Source: a virus
DNA: 40,042 nt
Direction: 5' to 3' (one strand)
Virus record (IMG/VR): IMGVR_UViG_3300045988_091053
Location: 1 to 40,042 of that record
Position 1 is the stretch's first letter; each line of letters begins with the position of its first letter. This document shows positions 2,798 through 38,534 of the stretch, piece after piece. Under the pieces are notes generated by a model. The model was not told where the DNA came from. It did not search any database and saw only the letters and a list, made by a program, of their open reading frames with translations. The position numbers were made by a program, and so were the translations under genes.

Positions 2798-3904
2798 ATG
2801 CAAATTACAAGAGGAAGGAAGGCGCGAGCTCAAAAAGTCGTGATCTATGGCCCCGAAGGAATCGGGAAGTCTAGCTTTGCGAGTCAATTCCCGGATCCGG
2901 TATTCATCGATACGGAAGGGTCAACGGATAATATGGACGTGGCCCGTATGGACAAGCCTACAAGCTGGACGATGCTAAAGAATCAGATCGCGTTCATCAA
3001 GGCAAACCCAGACGCTTGCAAGACGCTCGTCATCGATACGATCGACTGGGCGGAACAGCTCGCGGTCGATTATGTTTGCGCACAACACCAGAAGAACGGA
3101 ATCGAAGATTTCGGATGGGGCAAGGGCTATACATACGTCCAAGAAGAGATCGGGCGCTTATTGAATAGCTTGAGTGAGCTAGTGGATAATGGGATCAACG
3201 TCGTTTTGACAGCTCACGCACAAATCAAGAAATTCGAGCAACCGGACGAGATGGGATCATACGACCGGTACGAATTAAAGCTCGGGCAAAAGTCAAGCTC
3301 AAAAACAGCGCCACTCGTTAAGGAGTGGGCCGATATGGTGCTCTTTGCAAATTATAAGACAATCGTCATGACAACGGACACAGGCAAGAAAAAGGCCCAA
3401 GGGGGCGAGCGTGTCATGTACACGAACCACCGCCCAGCATGGGACGCAAAAAATCGTCACGGCTTACCAGATCAGCTCCCGTTCACGTTTGAGAGCGTGG
3501 CTCATATCTTCAACGCACCGGCTCCCGTACCCGAGCAACCAGCTCCACAACCAGCTCCACAACCAGAGCCACAGCCACAACCGACACCAGAGCCACAAAA
3601 GCAAAACATTAACGAGCAATTGCAAGAGGTCGCTCAAGAGGTGGCTCAAGAGATGGGACGGGCTCCACAAGCGGGACTCTTACCACAAGCATTGGTCGAC
3701 TTAATGGCGCCTAACAACGTAACGGAAAACGAATTACAAGAGGTTGCTTATATCCGCGGACACTTCCCGATGGGGACGCCGATCGAAAACTTCCCGGCGA
3801 ATTACTGGGATATGATCGTCGCGAATTGGGACGCTACACTCGACGTCATTCAAAACCAAGTCCGGAAAGACCCGGAATTACCATTTAATACTAACAACTT
3901 ATAA
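2798..3904 (+). CDS. Sak4-like AAA_24 (RecA-fold) ATPase with PQ linker and extra C-terminal domain
   Basis: KVVIYGPEGIGKSS Walker A and LVIDTIDW Walker B. PAPQPAPQPEPQPQPTPEPQ linker followed by about 100 further residues. Confidence 0.7.
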   Translation: MQITRGRKARAQKVVIYGPEGIGKSSFASQFPDPVFIDTEGSTDNMDVARMDKPTSWTMLKNQIAFIKANPDACKTLVIDTIDWAEQLAVDYVCAQHQKNGIEDFGWGKGYTYVQEEIGRLLNSLSELVDNGINVVLTAHAQIKKFEQPDEMGSYDRYELKLGQKSSSKTAPLVKEWADMVLFANYKTIVMTTDTGKKKAQGGERVMYTNHRPAWDAKNRHGLPDQLPFTFESVAHIFNAPAPVPEQPAPQPAPQPEPQPQPTPEPQKQNINEQLQEVAQEVAQEMGRAPQAGLLPQALVDLMAPNNVTENELQEVAYIRGHFPMGTPIENFPANYWDMIVANWDATLDVIQNQVRKDPELPFNTNNL

Positions 3905-35444: not shown

Positions 35445-36335
35445 ATGAATCGCTCAAACTGTACAAACTTAAAGCAGTTTGAGGGCGGTCGAGTCGTCAA
35501 GCAGGGCGACTCAGCCTCCCTTTTTGGCTTTGCATTATATGACGAAAACTGGGTTCCGATTGACCTTGACGGGCAAGAGGCTACAATCCATTTTGTAAGT
35601 AAAAAAGGCAAAGCGACGTTTAGCGCTACTGTCCAAGGCTCGAAGGTATCGTTTAAGATTCCCAAAGTCTTGCCAGTCGAGAGCTATCTTGTCGAGGTTG
35701 ATTGTGCCGGGTACGTATTCCCAAGTGACCAGAGCGTCCGAGTTGATGTGGTTCAGTCAGCGGAGGAATACCAGCCGACAGAAGTGGTCGAGCTTGGTAA
35801 GATCAGCTTGCGCGATGAGATCGCAAACTATCTTGCTGGACACACTTTACAAGCGTATAATGACAGCCCACTAGTCGCACGGATCGAAGCACTCGAAGCA
35901 CGGCCACAAGTTACAACGGTCGATCTGGGGCCGTTAGAAAGTCGATTACAATCGTTGGCCCTATCGGTTCAAGCCTTGGAAAATAAACCAGCTCCGACGG
36001 TTCAAACGCTCGATTTAGGACCGCTAGAAAAGCGCGTGGAAGCCTTGGAAAACAAGCAGGCACAAACAGCCCCAGTGGTTGACTTGAGTGCGTATATGAC
36101 CTCAGAAATGGCTTATCAGACGTTTGCGACGTATGCCACGTTACAAGATAAAATGACTAATAACATTAAGAATAAGCACCTTGAGCTTGGCCTTGACGCG
36201 CTGATCGACGAGAAACTGAGGAACGGTGGCGATAACTTCCTTACTAGCCACCAAGCCAGCACGGCTTACGTGTCAAAAGAAGTGTTTCAAAACTTGCTGA
36301 AACGTGTCGAAGTACTCGAATCAGTTCCTATATAA
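35445..36335 (+). CDS. BppU-like Ig-domain + coiled-coil fibre protein encoded after the lysis cassette
   Basis: N-terminal beta-rich domain (GRVVKQGDSASL...). Tandem DLGPLE(S/K)R..ALENK repeats. Last gene before the late terminator. Confidence 0.45.
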   Translation: MNRSNCTNLKQFEGGRVVKQGDSASLFGFALYDENWVPIDLDGQEATIHFVSKKGKATFSATVQGSKVSFKIPKVLPVESYLVEVDCAGYVFPSDQSVRVDVVQSAEEYQPTEVVELGKISLRDEIANYLAGHTLQAYNDSPLVARIEALEARPQVTTVDLGPLESRLQSLALSVQALENKPAPTVQTLDLGPLEKRVEALENKQAQTAPVVDLSAYMTSEMAYQTFATYATLQDKMTNNIKNKHLELGLDALIDEKLRNGGDNFLTSHQASTAYVSKEVFQNLLKRVEVLESVPI

Positions 36336-36343
36336 TGTATTTT

Positions 36344-36370
36344 CCCTCCCATCTCGGGAGGGCTTTTTTT
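36344..36370 (+). terminator. Late-operon rho-independent terminator
   Basis: CCCTCCC-atctc-GGGAGGG stem followed by C and seven T. Confidence 0.85.
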
Positions 36371-36374
36371 ATTG

Positions 36375-36392
36375 TCTGAAACTAGTTTCAGA
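36375..36392. promoter_or_regulatory. 18-bp perfect palindrome (candidate operator)
   Basis: TCTGAAACTAGTTTCAGA equals its own reverse complement. Confidence 0.5.
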
Positions 36393-36425
36393 ATAAAAAA
36401 TCTTTAATTATTTTTATAAAAGTGC

Positions 36426-36454
36426 TTGACGAACGTCAATTATGATGATATACT
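36426..36454 (+). promoter_or_regulatory. Promoter of the accessory two-gene operon
   Basis: TTGACG, 17-bp spacer, TATACT. The -35 box lies within the inverted repeat TTGACG-aa-CGTCAA. Confidence 0.65.
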
Positions 36455-36503
36455 ATATTCAAGATAAAGAAAGGGAGATCAAAAAGATCTCGAGTAAAAG
36501 AAA

Positions 36504-36809
36504 ATGACAAAAGTAAACGCAACTATTAAAACAGTAGCAAAAGAACTTGCTGAAAATATCGGCTGGGACGGCATGGAATTTTATCTCAAACAAGACGGTG
36601 AAACTGGGGCTCGTCAAAGTGGAAGTTTTGGCCCAGACGAAAGCGAAGTAGTGTATAAAGTATCGCTTGGCAAATGGTACTGGAGAGATGGCTTGGAAAA
36701 CATCGGCCTTAATATTGAAAAATTAAATGAAGAAGATCTTGAAACGCTTGCCGATTATCTCGAAGAATTTGAACTTGGTGAAGAAGATTTCGAATGGGAA
36801 GAAAACTAA
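36504..36809 (+). CDS. Highly acidic 101-aa protein (candidate DNA mimic / anti-defence protein)
   Basis: By my count 26 D/E versus 9 K/R. The C-terminus is EEDLETLADYLEEFELGEEDFEWEEN. Confidence 0.6.
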   Translation: MTKVNATIKTVAKELAENIGWDGMEFYLKQDGETGARQSGSFGPDESEVVYKVSLGKWYWRDGLENIGLNIEKLNEEDLETLADYLEEFELGEEDFEWEEN

Positions 36810-36824
36810 CGACGGGGTGGTCGA

Positions 36825-37022
36825 ATGATTATTAACACGGAACAAGTCGAAGCGGTCTTGATGAACAAGGCCGTTTCCGGCTATTTAATTGAAAAAGAAA
36901 CGGGAATCTCTAGCGCTTCTATCTCGCGTTTGCGAAATGAAAAAAAGCGTTTTGGAGATCTATCCATCGATACCGCGATCAAGGTCCAGCAATGGATCGA
37001 CATGAACGAAAATATAAATTAA
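36825..37022 (+). CDS. 65-aa HTH protein (Aca-like candidate autoregulator)
   Basis: RBS GGGGTGG. HTH segment SGYLIEKETGISSASISRLRNEKK. Confidence 0.6.
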   Translation: MIINTEQVEAVLMNKAVSGYLIEKETGISSASISRLRNEKKRFGDLSIDTAIKVQQWIDMNENIN

Positions 37023-37046
37023 GGTCGGGAATCCGGCCTTTTTTCT
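37023..37046 (+). terminator. Rho-independent terminator
   Basis: GGTCGG-gaat-CCGGCC stem followed by TTTTTT. Confidence 0.7.
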
Positions 37047-37349
37047 GTTATAACGGCAATTTCCTAGATTGTCTATTATAACGGCAAACAAAAAAAGCCC
37101 TCGGGCTCATTCTCTCAATTATGCGGGCAATGAATACGATTTTGAATACGTCTTTTTTTAATTATCGAAAAATGACGAAAACGATATTTTGACTAATGCG
37201 CTATTTTATAACTAATAGAAACGTACAACGCAACGATGGAAACGATTTTTGAATTATGCTAAAATAATGCCACTCGCCCTCAAGTCCTTGATATCACTGA
37301 CTTTCTAAGGGGTGAGAAGTGACTGAATACGAGACTGAATACGACTAAT
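37047..37349. other. Putative attP region with arm-type repeats
   Basis: Non-coding and AT-rich, adjacent to the int 3' end. TTATAACGGCAA occurs twice (37048, 37076). TGAATACG occurs four times (37131, 37143, 37324, 37336). Confidence 0.5.
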
Positions 37350-38495
37350 TTATATTACCATATATTCAAGCAGTTTATCCACTGTATCGGTTCGTTGCTC
37401 TTCCGTTATGTGAGTGTACAGATCCAGCGTGATCTGGACAGTGCTATGACCCAGTCTATCAGAAATGTTTTTAGGTTCCACGCCCGCACTAAACAGCAAT
37501 GAAGCGTGCGTGTGTCGGAGCCCGTGGGGCGTGATCGGTTTTAGTTTATGGTCAGCCATGAAACGCTTGAAATAACGGATAAAATTGTGAATATGCACCC
37601 AATCGCCCCACTTATTCGTAAAAATGAAATTTTCTTCCCCTTCAAAATGTTTGCCGTTTTTAAAATAGTTTTTTATTTGGTCCTTTTTCCAGCTTTTCAA
37701 AATTGAAAGGGTGGCGGGATCAATAGAGATTACGCGCTTGCTATTTTTAGTCTTGGGCGTCTGAAGGGTTTGTTTCTCTTTGATCCGGACCGCCGTTTTA
37801 TTAACGGTAATTTTTTTATTTTCAAAGTCAATATCTGACCATTTCAAAGCGAGGGCTTCCCCTTGACGTAACCCGGTATAACTCATCAAATGCACCAGCG
37901 GGAAGAAATAAGACAGCGTGGCAGTTTGAGCTAGTTTTAAAAACTCTTTCAATTCTTCCTTGGTTAAAAAATTGCCCTTTCTTTGAGTTTGCCGGCTTTT
38001 CGGCTTGATAACTTTATCAAAAGGGTTTGAATTGATTATGTCCATTAAAACAGCATATTTGAAGATTCGGTTAATGACTGAAAGATAATGATTATATAAG
38101 ACATAGCTTTTACTTAATTCAATAACCACTCTTTGGCAGTATGCGACTGTTATTTTTTTTAGCTTCATCTCTTTAAAATGCTCTTCAGTCATTTTCTCAA
38201 CCTTGGACTGGACATTTTCAAAAGTGCTAGGCTTGACTGTGGTTTTATAATTCTCTAGCCATAAGGAAGCTAGTTCTTCGAATGTAGGATCTTGGAATCC
38301 GTCTGATTGATTCGACTGAAGCCCGTTCTCTTCCACGTCAAGCAGCAAATTTCTTTCGGCTTGTTTAGCTTCTTTCATGGTTTTAAAGCCCCGGCGCGTG
38401 GTCCGCCGTTCTTTTCCGGTTAAGGGATCAATTCCCAGATAAGTTTGAAATAAGTAACGAGTCTCCCCGTTTTTGGTTGTATATTTTTTTATCAT
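37350..38495 (-). CDS. int: Tyrosine integrase
   Basis: Motifs HGLRHTHASLL and LGHSTVQITLDLYTH (R-H-R-Y catalytic set). Start set at the ATG preceded by AGGAGGAATC (38495) rather than 38522. Confidence 0.9.
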   Translation of the reverse strand: MIKKYTTKNGETRYLFQTYLGIDPLTGKERRTTRRGFKTMKEAKQAERNLLLDVEENGLQSNQSDGFQDPTFEELASLWLENYKTTVKPSTFENVQSKVEKMTEEHFKEMKLKKITVAYCQRVVIELSKSYVLYNHYLSVINRIFKYAVLMDIINSNPFDKVIKPKSRQTQRKGNFLTKEELKEFLKLAQTATLSYFFPLVHLMSYTGLRQGEALALKWSDIDFENKKITVNKTAVRIKEKQTLQTPKTKNSKRVISIDPATLSILKSWKKDQIKNYFKNGKHFEGEENFIFTNKWGDWVHIHNFIRYFKRFMADHKLKPITPHGLRHTHASLLFSAGVEPKNISDRLGHSTVQITLDLYTHITEEQRTDTVDKLLEYMVI

Positions 38496-38508
38496 GATTC
38501 CTCCTATG

Positions 38509-38534
38509 GCTTGCCCGCACAATTGAAAGAACGA
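38509..38534. repeat. Leader motif copy 2 (GCTTGCCCGCACAATTG), just upstream of the int RBS on the opposite strand
   Basis: 38509-38525 is identical to 405-421. Confidence 0.85.

What the first reader, a model, noticed from the sequence alone, without database searches (positions are those of the whole stretch)
36371..37046. Self-contained acidic-protein + small-HTH operon between the late terminator and attP: acr-aca-like anti-defence architecture
This operon is insulated by strong terminators on both sides (36344-36370 and 37023-37046). It has its own near-consensus promoter (TTGACG-17-TATACT, 36426-36454). The -35 box sits inside an inverted repeat, TTGACG-aa-CGTCAA. An 18-bp perfect palindrome, TCTGAAACTAGTTTCAGA (36375-36392), lies just upstream. 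The first gene encodes a 101-aa protein with 26 D/E versus 9 K/R by my count and an almost purely acidic C-terminus, which is DNA-mimic-like. The second gene encodes a 65-aa HTH protein. This matches the known layout of anti-CRISPR/anti-restriction loci: a small effector followed by an Aca-type HTH that represses a strong promoter through inverted repeats. The locus also sits at the classic moron position next to attP. I recognise neither protein as a named family.
Basis: partly seen in the sequence, partly recalled or inferred. Interest (0 to 1): 0.72.

Follow-up and report, generated by a model that had tools for sequence, protein, structure and literature searches.

The report
Anti-CRISPR-type operon with Aca12 repressor
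This is a small self-regulated phage operon of the known anti-CRISPR (acr-aca) kind: its second gene belongs to the named Aca12 repressor family, and its first gene encodes an uncharacterised acidic protein that is a strong but untested candidate inhibitor of bacterial immunity.

Summary
The window is a temperate Streptococcus phage, closest to Javan311 of S. mitis. The two-gene operon is a roughly 670-bp, lower-GC cassette that Javan311 lacks, and it is the last transcription unit before the attP crossover at about 37272.

ORF2 (65 aa) is not unnamed. It is a short form of Aca12, with 58% identity to the reference HTH domain (E 4e-22) and PDB hits to Aca11 and to the AcrIIA15 HTH domain. In 80 related loci this HTH follows variable cargo, including close homologues of AcrIIA5, AcrIIA26, AcrIIA30 and AcrIIA31.

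The repeat TTGACGAACGTCAA over the -35 box lies on the symmetry axis shared by 50 distinct promoters. Its outer bases covary, and the operator class tracks the recognition helix.

ORF1 (101 aa, pI 4.07) belongs to an unnamed family. It has no Pfam, NCBIfam, PADLOC or PDB match, and its confident AlphaFold model has no significant solved-structure match. Its homologues sit in operons with AcrIIA5 or AcrIIA30, and distant relatives are fused to Aca-type HTH or Arc-like domains.

Verdict: a new member of a known kind. ORF1's target and mechanism remain untested.

The parts
36344..36370 (+). Intrinsic terminator of the upstream late (lysis-module) transcription unit. It insulates the cassette from late transcription.
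   Evidence: The stem is 36344-36362 with 7 pairs (6 G-C) followed by a T-run. Folding gives -14.0 kcal/mol, z -4.0, with 0 of 200 shuffles as stable. It is shared with Javan311, which lacks the operon.
36375..36392 (.). Perfect 18-bp palindrome TCTGAAACTAGTTTCAGA. It is a conserved upstream element of unknown function and holds the left junction of the cassette relative to Javan311.
   Evidence: It is a perfect palindrome. The core TGAAA(C/G)TA(G/C)TT(T/C)C occurs in 42 of 65 related promoter contexts at a fixed 41-44 bp from the -35 box, with centre CTAG 20, GTAC 15 and GTAG 7. It is unique in the window. Identity with Javan311 ends at 36381, inside the palindrome. As RNA it is only a weak hairpin, -5.6 kcal/mol.
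36393..36425 (+). A/T-rich stretch upstream of the -35 box, probably an UP element (inferred).
   Evidence: The sequence AATAAAAAATCTTTAATTATTTTTATAAAAGTGC is conserved in related loci. A/T-rich UP elements are described for the homologous early promoters of S. thermophilus phage variable regions (PMC13575424).
36426..36454 (+). Strong sigma-A promoter of the operon: -35 TTGACG (36426-36431), 17-nt spacer, TG extended -10 (36446-36447) and -10 TATACT (36449-36454).
   Evidence: The consensus scan gives 10 of 12 matches plus TG. The scaffold is homologous across 50 distinct Aca12-type promoters. The promoter region is also about 80% identical (query 96-177 = window 36395-36476) to the promoter upstream of variable-region genes in S. 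thermophilus phages.
36426..36439 (.). Predicted Aca12-type operator: the inverted repeat TTGACG-AA-CGTCAA overlapping the -35 hexamer.
   Evidence: It is the only exact copy in the window. The family-wide symmetry axis lies at this position, with 4.8 of 6 pairs against 2.7 or fewer at other axes. The outer pair covaries as G..C (22) and C..G (22). The operator class tracks the HTH recognition-helix class. An Aca12 inverted repeat in acr-aca12 promoters was confirmed by EMSA in PMC13551039, but its sequence is not printed in the text.
36475..36491 (+). 5'-UTR hairpin GAGAUC-AAAAA-GAUCUC, lying between an SD-like AAAGGGAG and the start codon.
   Evidence: Folding gives -7.8 kcal/mol, z -3.1. 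In 36 distinct UTRs, 98% of cells are paired and 4 of 6 pairs show compensatory changes. None of 500 shuffles reaches the observed covariation or percentage paired, and slid controls pair at 47% or less. This probably corresponds to the RNA motif predicted for aca12 operons in PMC13551039, for which Aca12 binding was not detected. There is no Rfam match.
36504..36809 (+). ORF1: a 101-aa acidic protein and the candidate anti-CRISPR or anti-defence effector. It belongs to an unnamed family.
   Evidence: Charge is -17 and pI 4.07. The family has 52 close clusters, all hypothetical, and 64 clusters at 50% identity by profile search. The AF2 model has pLDDT 89.6 and pTM 0.79, with no PDB fold match and no Pfam, NCBIfam, PADLOC or PDB sequence match. 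Homologues sit in operons with AcrIIA5 or AcrIIA30 homologues and Aca12. Distant relatives are fused to an Aca-type HTH (P0075) or an Arc-like RHH (P0068).
36825..37022 (+). ORF2: a 65-aa short-form Aca12-family HTH protein and the predicted dimeric autorepressor of the operon.
   Evidence: It is 58% identical over 59 aa to Aca12 WP_033585136.1 (E 4e-22) and 39% identical to Aca11. PDB phmmer hits are the AcrIIA15 HTH domain (E 9.8e-6) and Aca11 9lx2 (E 2e-5). The counterparts of Aca11 residues V3, T5, L44, Y18, K22, S32 and K38 are retained, R39 is replaced by K, and Q28 is replaced by S (alignment read against PMC12658196). An SD, GGGGTGG, lies 4 nt upstream of the ATG.
37021..37046 (+). Intrinsic terminator of the operon.
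   Evidence: The stem is 37021-37040 with 8 pairs followed by a T-run. Folding gives -11.9 kcal/mol, z -3.6.
37260..37284 (.). Context: the attP crossover region, which makes the operon the last unit of the prophage right arm.
   Evidence: The integrated copy L096 is 99.97% identical to the window up to 37272 and then continues into host pepF. Javan311 identity ends at the same position. Two metagenome contigs break at 37284. The integrase gene lies at 37350-38522 on the minus strand.

Best explanation
The locus is an Aca12-controlled anti-defence (acr-aca) operon carried as a cassette at the right end of a temperate Streptococcus phage.

Inferred mechanism:
1. When the genome enters a cell, host sigma-A RNA polymerase fires the strong promoter at 36426-36454. 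The promoter has an extended -10 and an A/T-rich upstream region.
2. This makes a bicistronic mRNA that ends at the 37021-37046 terminator.
3. ORF1, a compact and very acidic 101-aa protein, accumulates early and neutralises a host immune effector. The most likely target is a CRISPR-Cas system, and within that a type II-A Cas9.
4. ORF2, a short Aca12-type HTH protein, then dimerises and binds the repeat TTGACGAACGTCAA over the -35 box. This shuts the promoter down by negative autoregulation.
5. The conserved 5'-UTR hairpin next to the ribosome-binding region probably adds a post-transcriptional layer.

Shown here: the anatomy, ORF2's family membership, the operator position with covariation, the cassette nature of the locus, and ORF1's association with validated Acrs and with Aca fusions.

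Inferred: repression by ORF2, early timing of expression, and any inhibitory activity or target of ORF1.
For: - ORF2 belongs to the Aca12 family: 58% identity, E 4e-22, with PDB hits to Aca11 and the AcrIIA15 HTH domain.
- In 80 IMG/VR loci the HTH is the conserved anchor downstream of variable small cargo. The cargo includes homologues of AcrIIA5 (84% identity), AcrIIA30 (83%), AcrIIA31 (80-93%) and AcrIIA26 (54%).
- Relatives 85-93% identical to ORF2 carry four other unrelated cargo families.
- The repeat at the -35 box lies on the family-wide symmetry axis. Its outer pair covaries G..C and C..G, 22 to 22. The operator class follows the recognition-helix class.
- Every ORF1-family locus examined lies in an Aca12 operon: L004/L063, L005-L008, L103-L104 and the window. 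Three distinct IMG/VR loci (L005-L007) also carry AcrIIA5, as by gene order and length do L103-L104, and one locus (L008) carries AcrIIA30.
- Distant ORF1-domain relatives are fused to an Aca-type HTH (P0075: profile E 1.5e-9, HTH against AcrIIA15 E 4e-5) and to an Arc-like RHH (P0068: E 5e-8). Such fusions are the published 'more confident' marker of an Acr (criterion from PMC8934645).
- The operon is a clean indel relative to Javan311. Its GC content is 0.37-0.42, against 0.46-0.51 upstream.
- Aca11 and Aca12 repression or DNA binding is shown experimentally in PMC12658196, PMC12282945 and PMC13551039.
Against: - No activity of ORF1 has been measured, and its family is unnamed in every source.
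- In the published Streptococcus screen, about 30 Aca-associated candidates yielded only 9 Acr families. orf1-17, including cargo types found next to this HTH (orf5, orf8, orf14), showed no activity on SpyCas9, St1Cas9 or St3Cas9.
- In the window itself, ORF2's only neighbour is the uncharacterised ORF1.
- The model has no fold similarity to known Acrs or DNA mimics: best PDB E 0.13, TM 0.32.
- One distant branch of the ORF1 family (the P0063/P0114 cluster) sits among unannotated genes with no recognisable regulator next to it.
- The host and its CRISPR-Cas content are unknown.
- The sequence of the Aca12 repeat validated by EMSA is not printed in the paper text, so its identity with my operator is inferred.
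Confidence: 0.6

Rival explanations
1. The operon has the same architecture and the same Aca12 autoregulation, but ORF1 inhibits a defence other than CRISPR-Cas. Examples are restriction-modification by DNA mimicry, or another innate system.
For: ORF1 is extremely acidic (pI 4.07), as are Ocr/ArdA-type mimics (established knowledge). PMC13551039 argues that Aca-regulated operons also carry non-Acr anti-defence genes. Many Aca12-associated candidates were inactive on the three Cas9s tested.
Against: Every validated cargo found beside this HTH family here is an AcrIIA. There is no fold or sequence similarity to Ocr, ArdA or any other known mimic. Most cargo families in these loci are acidic, including validated Cas9 inhibitors such as AcrIIA26 (pI 4.1-4.3) and AcrIIA31, so acidity does not discriminate.
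Confidence: 0.2
2. ORF1 is a moron with a function unrelated to defence, such as superinfection exclusion, host physiology or competence modulation, or a co-regulator. ORF2 is then simply its small autoregulator.
For: The position next to attP is typical of lysogenic-conversion genes in general (established knowledge). ORF1 has no recognisable domain. About two thirds of the Aca-associated candidates tested in the literature had no detected Acr activity. One distant family branch lacks an adjacent regulator.
Against: ORF1 homologues share operons with AcrIIA5 and AcrIIA30 homologues. Fusions of the ORF1 domain to Aca-type HTH and RHH domains mirror known Acr-Aca fusions. Strong-promoter-plus-autorepressor logic is characteristic of genes needed immediately on entry (PMC13551039).
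Confidence: 0.15
3. The pair is a type II toxin-antitoxin or other addiction module, with the HTH protein as the antitoxin.
For: It is a two-gene, autoregulated small operon. ORF2 has a weak sub-threshold NCBIfam match to HigA (E 0.082, 12.7 bits against a cut-off of 47.7).
Against: Neither protein has a PADLOC hit. ORF1 is acidic, folded and unlike known toxins. ORF2 matches Aca12, Aca11 and AcrIIA15 far better. The upstream partner is freely exchangeable among unrelated families, which a cognate toxin-antitoxin pair would not tolerate.
Confidence: 0.03

Closest known systems
acr-aca12 operons of Streptococcus phages and prophages (Song et al. 2022, PMC8934645; Feussner et al. 2026, PMC13551039)
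   Same: The HTH family is the same, at 58% identity to reference Aca12. The layout is the same: a strong sigma-A promoter, small cargo gene or genes, then aca. The repeat sits in the promoter, the 5'-UTR RNA hairpin is conserved, and the genomic position downstream of the lysis module is the same.
   Different: ORF2 is a 65-aa stand-alone HTH. It lacks the roughly 80-aa C-terminal domain of the 140-aa reference, which is described as carrying AcrIIA36 activity. About 32 of 81 loci have this short form. The cargo (ORF1) is an untested family that is absent from the published candidate table.
acrIIA25.1-aca11 operon and the Aca11 crystal structure 9lx2 (PMC12658196, PMC12282945)
   Same: The small HTH repressor is homologous, at 39% identity, with the dimer-interface and most DNA-contact residues conserved. 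The promoter scaffold is almost the same (…GTG TTGACA-17-TATACT ATA…AAGATAAA…), and autorepression works through a promoter repeat.
   Different: The Aca11 operator is a 24-bp repeat (two 11-bp half-sites) that fills the spacer and overlaps the -10 box. Here the repeat is TTGAC-N4-GTCAA, centred 7 bp into the -35 region. The key base-contact residue Q28 is S in ORF2.
Acr-Aca fusion proteins (AcrIIA13-15 of Staphylococcus; AcrIIA29 and AcrIIA32 of Streptococcus)
   Same: ORF2 matches the AcrIIA15 N-terminal HTH domain (E 9.8e-6). Distant ORF1-domain relatives exist as HTH-effector (P0075) and RHH-effector (P0068) fusions, which is the same design.
   Different: In the window the two functions are on separate genes. 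The ORF1 domain is unrelated in sequence and predicted fold to the effector domains of the solved fusions.
'Variable region' downstream of lysin in S. thermophilus virulent phages (PMC13575424, citing Johnson et al. 2025)
   Same: The early sigma-A promoter with its A/T-rich upstream region is homologous at about 80% identity. The position right after the lysis genes is the same, and the content is a shuffled set of small genes including Acrs.
   Different: Here the region is in a temperate phage next to attP and the integrase, holds only one cargo gene, and ORF1 has no tblastn match in any of 50,697 GenBank phage records.
AcrIIA4 and AcrIIA2 (acidic DNA-mimic Cas9 inhibitors)
   Same: These are small alpha/beta proteins with very low pI. 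Low pI has been linked to blocking DNA binding (PMC10711425).
   Different: There is no sequence or fold similarity: best Foldseek PDB E 0.13. DNA mimicry by ORF1 is a conjecture only.

Membership tests
Aca12 (anti-CRISPR-associated HTH family 12) | Sequence homology to the reference Aca12 HTH domain (WP_033585136.1) | tested here: met
   BLASTP gives 34 of 59 identical (58%), E 4e-22, over residues 1-59 of both proteins. ORF2 is closer to Aca12 than to Aca11, which gives 39% and E 3e-11.
Aca12 (anti-CRISPR-associated HTH family 12) | Contains a DNA-binding (HTH) domain | tested here: met
   phmmer against PDB hits the AcrIIA15 HTH domain 8jfr (E 9.8e-6) and Aca11 9lx2 (E 2e-5). Pfam HTH_26 and Trp_repressor matches are sub-threshold only. 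The single-sequence AF2 model shows four helices but has low confidence (pLDDT 61.8), and its fold search was inconclusive, with AcrIIA15-DNA as top hit at E 0.39.
Aca12 (anti-CRISPR-associated HTH family 12) | Family associates, adjacent and co-oriented, with more than two distinct Acr types (criterion of PMC8934645) | tested here: met
   In 80 loci the HTH lies directly downstream of homologues of AcrIIA5, AcrIIA26, AcrIIA30 and AcrIIA31. The nearest such case to ORF2 is L019, where a 72%-identical HTH sits next to an 83%-identical AcrIIA30.
Aca12 (anti-CRISPR-associated HTH family 12) | This copy's own neighbour is a validated Acr | tested here: inconclusive
   The only neighbour is ORF1, which is uncharacterised and not in the published candidate table.
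Aca12 (anti-CRISPR-associated HTH family 12) | Inverted-repeat operator within the operon promoter | tested here: met
   TTGACGAACGTCAA overlaps the -35 box. The family-wide axis, the covarying outer pair and the helix-operator correspondence all agree. The EMSA-validated Aca12 repeat (PMC13551039) could not be compared base by base, because its sequence is not in the text.
Aca12 (anti-CRISPR-associated HTH family 12) | Full 140-aa architecture with the C-terminal domain (reported as AcrIIA36) | tested here: not met
   ORF2 stops at residue 65, directly before the terminator. About 32 of 81 homologues are likewise 61-66 aa. This feature concerns the fused effector and not the Aca (HTH) function, so ORF2 is filed as a short-form member.
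Aca12 (anti-CRISPR-associated HTH family 12) | Binds the operator and represses its own promoter | not testable with these tools
   This needs EMSA and reporter assays.
Anti-CRISPR protein (Acr), for ORF1 | Inhibits a CRISPR-Cas system | not testable with these tools
Anti-CRISPR protein (Acr), for ORF1 | Candidate criteria of PMC8934645: under 300 aa, directly adjacent to an aca or acr gene in the same orientation, and fusion with Aca as the more confident marker | tested here: met
   ORF1 has 101 aa and ends 15 nt upstream of the aca12-type gene. Homologues lie beside AcrIIA5 or AcrIIA30. Remote homologues are fused to an Aca-type HTH (P0075) and an Arc-like RHH (P0068).
Anti-CRISPR protein (Acr), for ORF1 | Homology to an already named Acr family | tested here: not met
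   There is no match to PDB chains by sequence or profile, Pfam, NCBIfam or PHROG functions, the AcrIIA24-32 and orf1-17 table, or GenBank phages. The sequences of AcrIIA33-36 and the S. thermophilus type I and III Acrs were not available for comparison.
DNA-mimic proteins (AcrIIA4, AcrIIA2, Ocr type), for ORF1 | Strong net negative charge | tested here: met
   Net charge is -17 and pI is 4.07. This does not discriminate, because most cargo families in these loci have pI 4-5.
DNA-mimic proteins (AcrIIA4, AcrIIA2, Ocr type), for ORF1 | Fold or surface charge pattern resembling B-DNA or known mimics | tested here: not met
   Foldseek of the confident model against PDB gives a best E of 0.13 and TM 0.32, with no mimic among the hits.
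Type II toxin-antitoxin module | Recognisable toxin and antitoxin families, with a cognate fixed pairing | tested here: not met
   There are no PADLOC hits. The HigA match is far below the cut-off. The upstream partner varies freely.

The most novel reading that the evidence does not exclude
ORF1 defines a new anti-CRISPR or anti-defence effector domain. Its conserved core is W-D/E-G-M-E ... R-Q-x-G-S-x-G ... Y-W, and its predicted alpha/beta fold has no significant match among solved structures. The domain is spread over at least 64 clusters at 50% identity in phage and metagenome sequences. It has been joined repeatedly, by operon linkage or by gene fusion, to two unrelated classes of Aca-type repressors (HTH and RHH). 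If it binds a Cas effector, it would be a new inhibitor family, possibly active on the Cas9s of commensal mitis-group streptococci.
Probability: 0.5. Interest if true: 0.55.

Novelty: new member of a known kind. Interest (0 to 1): 0.42.

Why it matters
The architecture itself is established biology, so the value lies in what it singles out. ORF1 is a small protein with a confident predicted structure that has no significant match among solved structures. It has unusually good circumstantial credentials as an immune inhibitor: co-operonic with AcrIIA5 and AcrIIA30, anchored by Aca12, and fused to Aca-type domains in remote relatives. If active, it would add a Cas9 or other CRISPR inhibitor from phages of human commensal streptococci, with possible use as a genome-editing off-switch.

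The comparative set also gives three further results. It provides a data-derived operator model for Aca12-type repressors, with protein-DNA covariation. It shows that short stand-alone Aca12 forms are common. It lists several other recurrent untested cargo families.

Tried and rejected
Searches on ORF1 that found nothing:
- Pfam, NCBIfam and PADLOC gave no hit for ORF1. PHROGs gave only one weak hit to a family of unknown function (phrog_15453, E 0.0096).
- PDB by sequence, PDB by profile, and Foldseek against PDB found nothing. BFVD gave one uncharacterised 88-aa phage protein.
- tblastn of ORF1 against 50,697 GenBank phages gave no match.
- Scans of 185,579 species-representative genomes with the ORF1 alignment and with ORF2 found nothing.

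Other negative searches:
- Rfam on the locus gave no match.
- Full-text search for ORF1 peptides found no paper.
- Supplements of PMC10711425, PMC12282945 and PMC13551039 are not held, so the AcrIIA33-35 sequences and the Aca12 EMSA probe could not be compared.
- Johnson et al. 2025 (CRISPR J) is not held, and record BK039523.1 is not in the collections.
- The single-sequence AF2 model of ORF2 was low-confidence and its fold search was inconclusive.
- Pfam on ten longer ORF1-domain relatives and on four other cargo families gave nothing beyond a weak HicB/RHH hit.
- The context of a distant branch (P0114) and of P0060 was uninformative.

Ideas considered and rejected:
- The 18-bp palindrome as the Aca operator. 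It does not covary with the HTH, and part of it survives without the operon.
- A phage CI/Cro operator. There is no second copy in the window.
- A CodY box. My count from memory of the consensus gave only about 10 of 15 matches, and this was not tested.
- A toxin-antitoxin reading.
- A disordered acidic tail. The model shows a structured helix.
Full report
**1. Observation**

- ORF1 (36504-36809) encodes 101 aa with 7 D + 19 E against 7 K + 2 R, net charge -17 and pI 4.07.
- ORF2 (36825-37022) encodes 65 aa.
- A TTGACG-17-TATACT promoter lies at 36426-36454. It matches 10 of 12 consensus positions and has a TG extended -10.
- Two intrinsic terminators flank the operon. Their stems are 36344-36362 and 37021-37040, each followed by a T-run. 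They fold at -14.0 and -11.9 kcal/mol (z -4.0 and -3.6), and no shuffle is as stable.
- TCTGAAACTAGTTTCAGA (36375-36392) is a perfect palindrome. TTGACG-AA-CGTCAA (36426-36439) is a 6-2-6 inverted repeat.
- A good SD (GGGGTGG) precedes ORF2, 15 nt after the ORF1 stop codon, so the two genes form one bicistronic unit.

**2. Genomic setting**

The window is a temperate Streptococcus phage.
- Its last 25 kb is 88% identical to prophage Javan311 of S. mitis and 87% identical to Javan377, 380 and 381 of S. parasanguinis.
- The same phage occurs on 13 contigs, those examined coming from human gut metagenomes.
- Pfam annotation of an identical contig gives this gene order: holin, Amidase_5 endolysin, a 296-aa protein of unknown function, ORF1, ORF2, then on the opposite strand the integrase, a 173-aa protein, a Peptidase_M78 protein and an HTH_3 repressor.
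- Javan311 has the upstream terminator and the attP-side DNA but not the operon. Window 36382-37047 is replaced there by about 7 bp.
- An integrated copy (L096) is 99.97% identical up to 37272 and then runs into host pepF. Javan311 diverges at the same base.
- GC content falls from 0.46-0.51 in the late genes to 0.37-0.42 in the operon.

The operon is therefore a discrete cassette and the last transcription unit before the attachment site. The 'moron next to attP' description is correct.

**3. ORF2 is a named family**

- phmmer against PDB sequences hits the N-terminal HTH domain of AcrIIA15 (8jfr, E 9.8e-6) and the anti-CRISPR-associated protein Aca11 (9lx2, E 2e-5).
- The supplementary table of Song et al. 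2022 (PMC8934645) gives the Aca12 reference, WP_033585136.1, at 140 aa. ORF2 is 58% identical to its first 59 residues (E 4e-22), against 39% identity to Aca11.
- I read the alignment against the mutational data for Aca11 in PMC12658196. ORF2 keeps the equivalents of the dimer-interface residues V3, T5 and L44 (as I3, T5 and L46). It also keeps the DNA-contact residues Y18, K22, S32 and K38. R39 becomes K, and the base-specific Q28 becomes S. This fits a related protein with a different operator.
- The reference Aca12 carries about 80 further C-terminal residues. Feussner et al. [quoted passage not shown] ORF2 lacks that part and ends at the terminator.
- Among 81 homologues collected here, about 32 are 61-66 aa and about 47 are 138-143 aa. 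The short stand-alone form is therefore common, not a truncation artefact.

**4. Guilt by association**

- A scan of IMG/VR with an alignment of six such HTH domains returned 80 loci.
- I chained co-oriented upstream ORFs and clustered them together with the proteins of Song's table. The HTH is a fixed anchor behind variable cargo:
  - homologues of validated Acrs: AcrIIA5 (84% identity), AcrIIA30 (83%), AcrIIA31 (80-93%) and AcrIIA26 (54%);
  - Song's tested-but-inactive orf1, orf5, orf8, orf13 and orf14;
  - several recurrent unnamed families.
- HTH proteins 85-93% identical to ORF2 follow four other unrelated cargo types.
- Javan348 of S. oralis has the homologous promoter, an orf14-type cargo gene and a 46%-identical HTH.

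**5. Operator**

- All these operons share one promoter scaffold: an A/T-rich upstream stretch, TTGAC(G/A), 17 nt, an extended -10 and TATA(A/C)T.
- In 50 distinct promoters, the symmetry axis 7 nt into the -35 region (TTGACGA|ACGTCAA in the window) has on average 4.8 of 6 complementary pairs. Every other axis scores 0.3-2.7.
- The pair flanking the repeat, at positions -1 and +14, is G..C in 22 promoters and C..G in 22. That is a symmetric double change, as expected for a site bound by a dimer.
- Operator class follows recognition-helix class. Helices of the type G-I-(S/N)-R-S-A-(I/V)-T-R-(I/L)-R go with GTTGACA-TA-N-GTCAAC. Helices of the type G-I-(Q/S)-(E/G/S)-(S/A)-S-I-S-(L/R)-L-R, which includes ORF2, go with CTTGACG-AA-CGT(C/A)AA(G/T).
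- The exact window operator occurs once in the 40 kb.
- Feussner et al. report an Aca12 inverted repeat in these promoters and a gel shift with purified Aca12. The sequence appears only in a figure, so its equivalence with my consensus is inferred.
- For comparison, the Aca11 operator (AGTATATAACA-AA-TGTTATATACT) fills the spacer of a nearly identical promoter scaffold and overlaps the -10 box.

**6. 5' UTR**

- Between an SD-like AAAGGGAG and the start codon lies the hairpin GAGAUC-AAAAA-GAUCUC (36475-36491; -7.8 kcal/mol, z -3.1).
- Across 36 distinct UTRs, 98% of cells are paired and 4 of 6 pairs carry compensatory changes (GAGAUC, GAGAGC, GAGUUC, GAGAAC, GCCGA and others). No shuffle reaches the observed covariation score or percentage paired, and slid controls pair at 47% or less.
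- Some operons lack the hairpin and have the SD at normal spacing.
- This is very probably the RNA motif predicted for aca12 operons by Feussner et al., who did not detect Aca12 binding to it. Rfam has no match. Its role is open; it may control translation or mRNA stability.

**7. The 18-bp palindrome**

- Its core, TGAAA(C/G)TA(G/C)TT(T/C)C, is present in 42 of 65 promoter contexts, always 41-44 bp from the -35 box. The centre is CTAG in 20, GTAC in 15 and GTAG in 7.
- It occurs with every HTH subtype and is unique in the window.
- Its left half persists in Javan311, where the cassette junction falls inside it.
- I therefore do not think it is the Aca operator. It remains unexplained. It could be a site for another dimeric factor, or a recombination hotspot for cassette exchange.

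**8. ORF1**

- The family has 52 close clusters, all 'hypothetical', and only one of them is held in NCBI nr, where it is a hypothetical protein of an uncultured phage.
- A profile search of 1.8 billion representatives finds 64 clusters. Those looked up are unnamed in every source.
- There is no Pfam, NCBIfam or PADLOC hit. The only PHROG hit is weak and to a family of unknown function.
- No PDB chain matches by sequence or profile. No peptide match exists in the Song candidate table or in the searchable literature.
- There is no tblastn match in 50,697 GenBank phage records or in 185,579 species-representative genomes.
- AlphaFold2 on a 16-sequence alignment gives a confident model (pLDDT 89.6, pTM 0.79). 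Its elements are helix 8-18, strands 24-29, 34-38 and 49-54, and helices 43-48, 57-66 and 76-90. The acidic C-terminal third is a structured amphipathic helix plus a short strand that carries the nearly invariant W98.
- Foldseek finds nothing significant in PDB (best E 0.13, TM 0.32). In BFVD it finds only one uncharacterised 88-aa phage protein.
- Invariant residues cluster in W21-D22-x-M24-E25, R37-Q38-x-G40-S41-F42-G43 and Y59-W60. These motifs persist in distant relatives.

**9. Context of the ORF1 family**

- Every close homologue whose locus I could read lies in an Aca12 operon.
  - Some are alone with a short HTH (L004/L063 and the window).
  - Some are first gene of an operon that continues with an 89-aa gene, an AcrIIA5 homologue and a long Aca12 (L005-L007; L103-L104 show the same gene order and lengths).
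  - One sits in a longer array that ends with an AcrIIA30 homologue and a short HTH (L008/L019).
- Two distant relatives are fusions.
  - P0075 (158 aa) has an N-terminal HTH that matches AcrIIA15 (E 4e-5) and ORF2 (E 2e-6), followed by the ORF1 domain (profile E 1.5e-9).
  - P0068 (143 aa) has an Arc-like ribbon-helix-helix domain (PHROG E 5e-8) followed by the ORF1 domain.
- Song et al. treat fusion to an Aca as the more confident marker of an Acr. An RHH-type Aca (Aca14) has since been described.
- One distant branch (the P0063/P0114 cluster, 116 members) lies among unannotated genes with no obvious regulator. P0060 lies in a small array of unknown genes.

**10. Mechanism and its limits**

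The best reading is a classic acr-aca circuit. A strong early promoter produces a burst of ORF1 and ORF2. ORF2 dimers then occlude the -35 box. ORF1 inhibits a host immune effector.
- The homologous promoters of S. thermophilus phage variable regions are early sigma-A promoters. [quoted passage not shown]
- Repression by Aca11 and DNA binding by Aca12 are experimentally established for relatives.
- What is not established is any activity of ORF1. In Song's screen about 30 candidates gave 9 Acr families. orf1-17 were inactive on three Cas9s, and some of them are cargo types seen next to this very HTH family.
- Acidity does not discriminate between active and inactive cargo, because most cargo families here have pI 4-5.
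- I therefore give about 0.85 to 'Aca12-type autoregulated cassette' and about 0.6 to 'ORF1 is an anti-CRISPR'. Within that, I give roughly 0.35-0.4 to a type II-A Cas9 target. The rest goes to another defence target or a non-defence moron. A toxin-antitoxin reading is very unlikely.

**11. Novelty and score**

The architecture, the regulator family, the operator principle and even the UTR motif are published. ORF1 is a new, uncharacterised cargo family with above-average circumstantial support. This is a new member of a known kind. It is useful as a prioritised candidate and unsurprising to a specialist, so I score interest at 0.42. I could not compare ORF1 with AcrIIA33-36 or with the S. thermophilus type I and III Acrs, whose sequences are not held. 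A match there would make ORF1 already known.

Noticed in passing
window 37041-37087, 37131-37150 and 37324-37343: The attP region carries direct repeats. TTATAACGGCAA occurs twice. TGAATACG occurs four times, in two pairs on either side of the crossover at about 37272. These are probably integrase arm-type binding sites. A minus-strand terminator-like hairpin lies at 37095-37108.
   Followed up: partly
L096 3770-4948 (integrated copy of the window phage): The prophage integrates immediately upstream of the host oligoendopeptidase F gene (pepF, TIGR00181, E 4e-104). The window itself is the circular or excised arrangement, with the integrase next to the cassette.
   Followed up: yes
IMG/VR loci L014-L093 (for example L015 2163-2504, L018 2214-2489, L019 region of the 89-aa gene): Several recurrent uncharacterised small cargo families lie in Aca12-type operons, and none has a Pfam hit: fam0 (113 aa, MIKWTGKSTDKRW..., 17 loci, pI 4.1-4.9), fam2 (91 aa, 13 loci), fam9 (89 aa, pI 4.1), fam11 (93 aa, basic) and fam21 (77 aa). 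These are further untested anti-defence candidates.
   Followed up: partly
L002 (Streptococcus phage P7631) 3032-3060 and 1273-1301: The promoter scaffold is the same as in the window. However, a different perfect palindrome, TATCATATATGATA, lies between the -35 and -10 boxes in front of an orf11-type gene, and a related one lies upstream. This suggests a different cognate repressor in S. thermophilus virulent phages.
   Followed up: no
window 35445-36335: A 296-aa protein is encoded downstream of the endolysin and conserved in Javan311. Its central part has repeats of the LE(A/N)(R/K)P type. It matches only PHROGs of unknown function, plus a weaker (E 5e-10) match to a 'neck protein' PHROG. 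Its role after the lysis genes is unclear.
   Followed up: partly
L003 (Javan348) 3152-3343 minus strand; L004 3162-3353 minus strand: A second small HTH gene (63 aa, MSVDIKAIRWLLDNATAY...) resembles Aca11-type proteins. It is encoded convergently just downstream of the Aca12-type gene in some loci. It may belong to a neighbouring Aca-regulated unit.
   Followed up: no
window 36470-36503 and related UTRs (alignment A4): Two SD-like elements bracket the UTR hairpin: a strong AAAGGGAG partly inside the 5' arm, and a weaker (G/A)GGT or GAGT 8-9 nt before the ATG. Operons without the hairpin have a single SD at normal spacing. The hairpin therefore looks like an inserted module that could gate translation.
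   Followed up: partly
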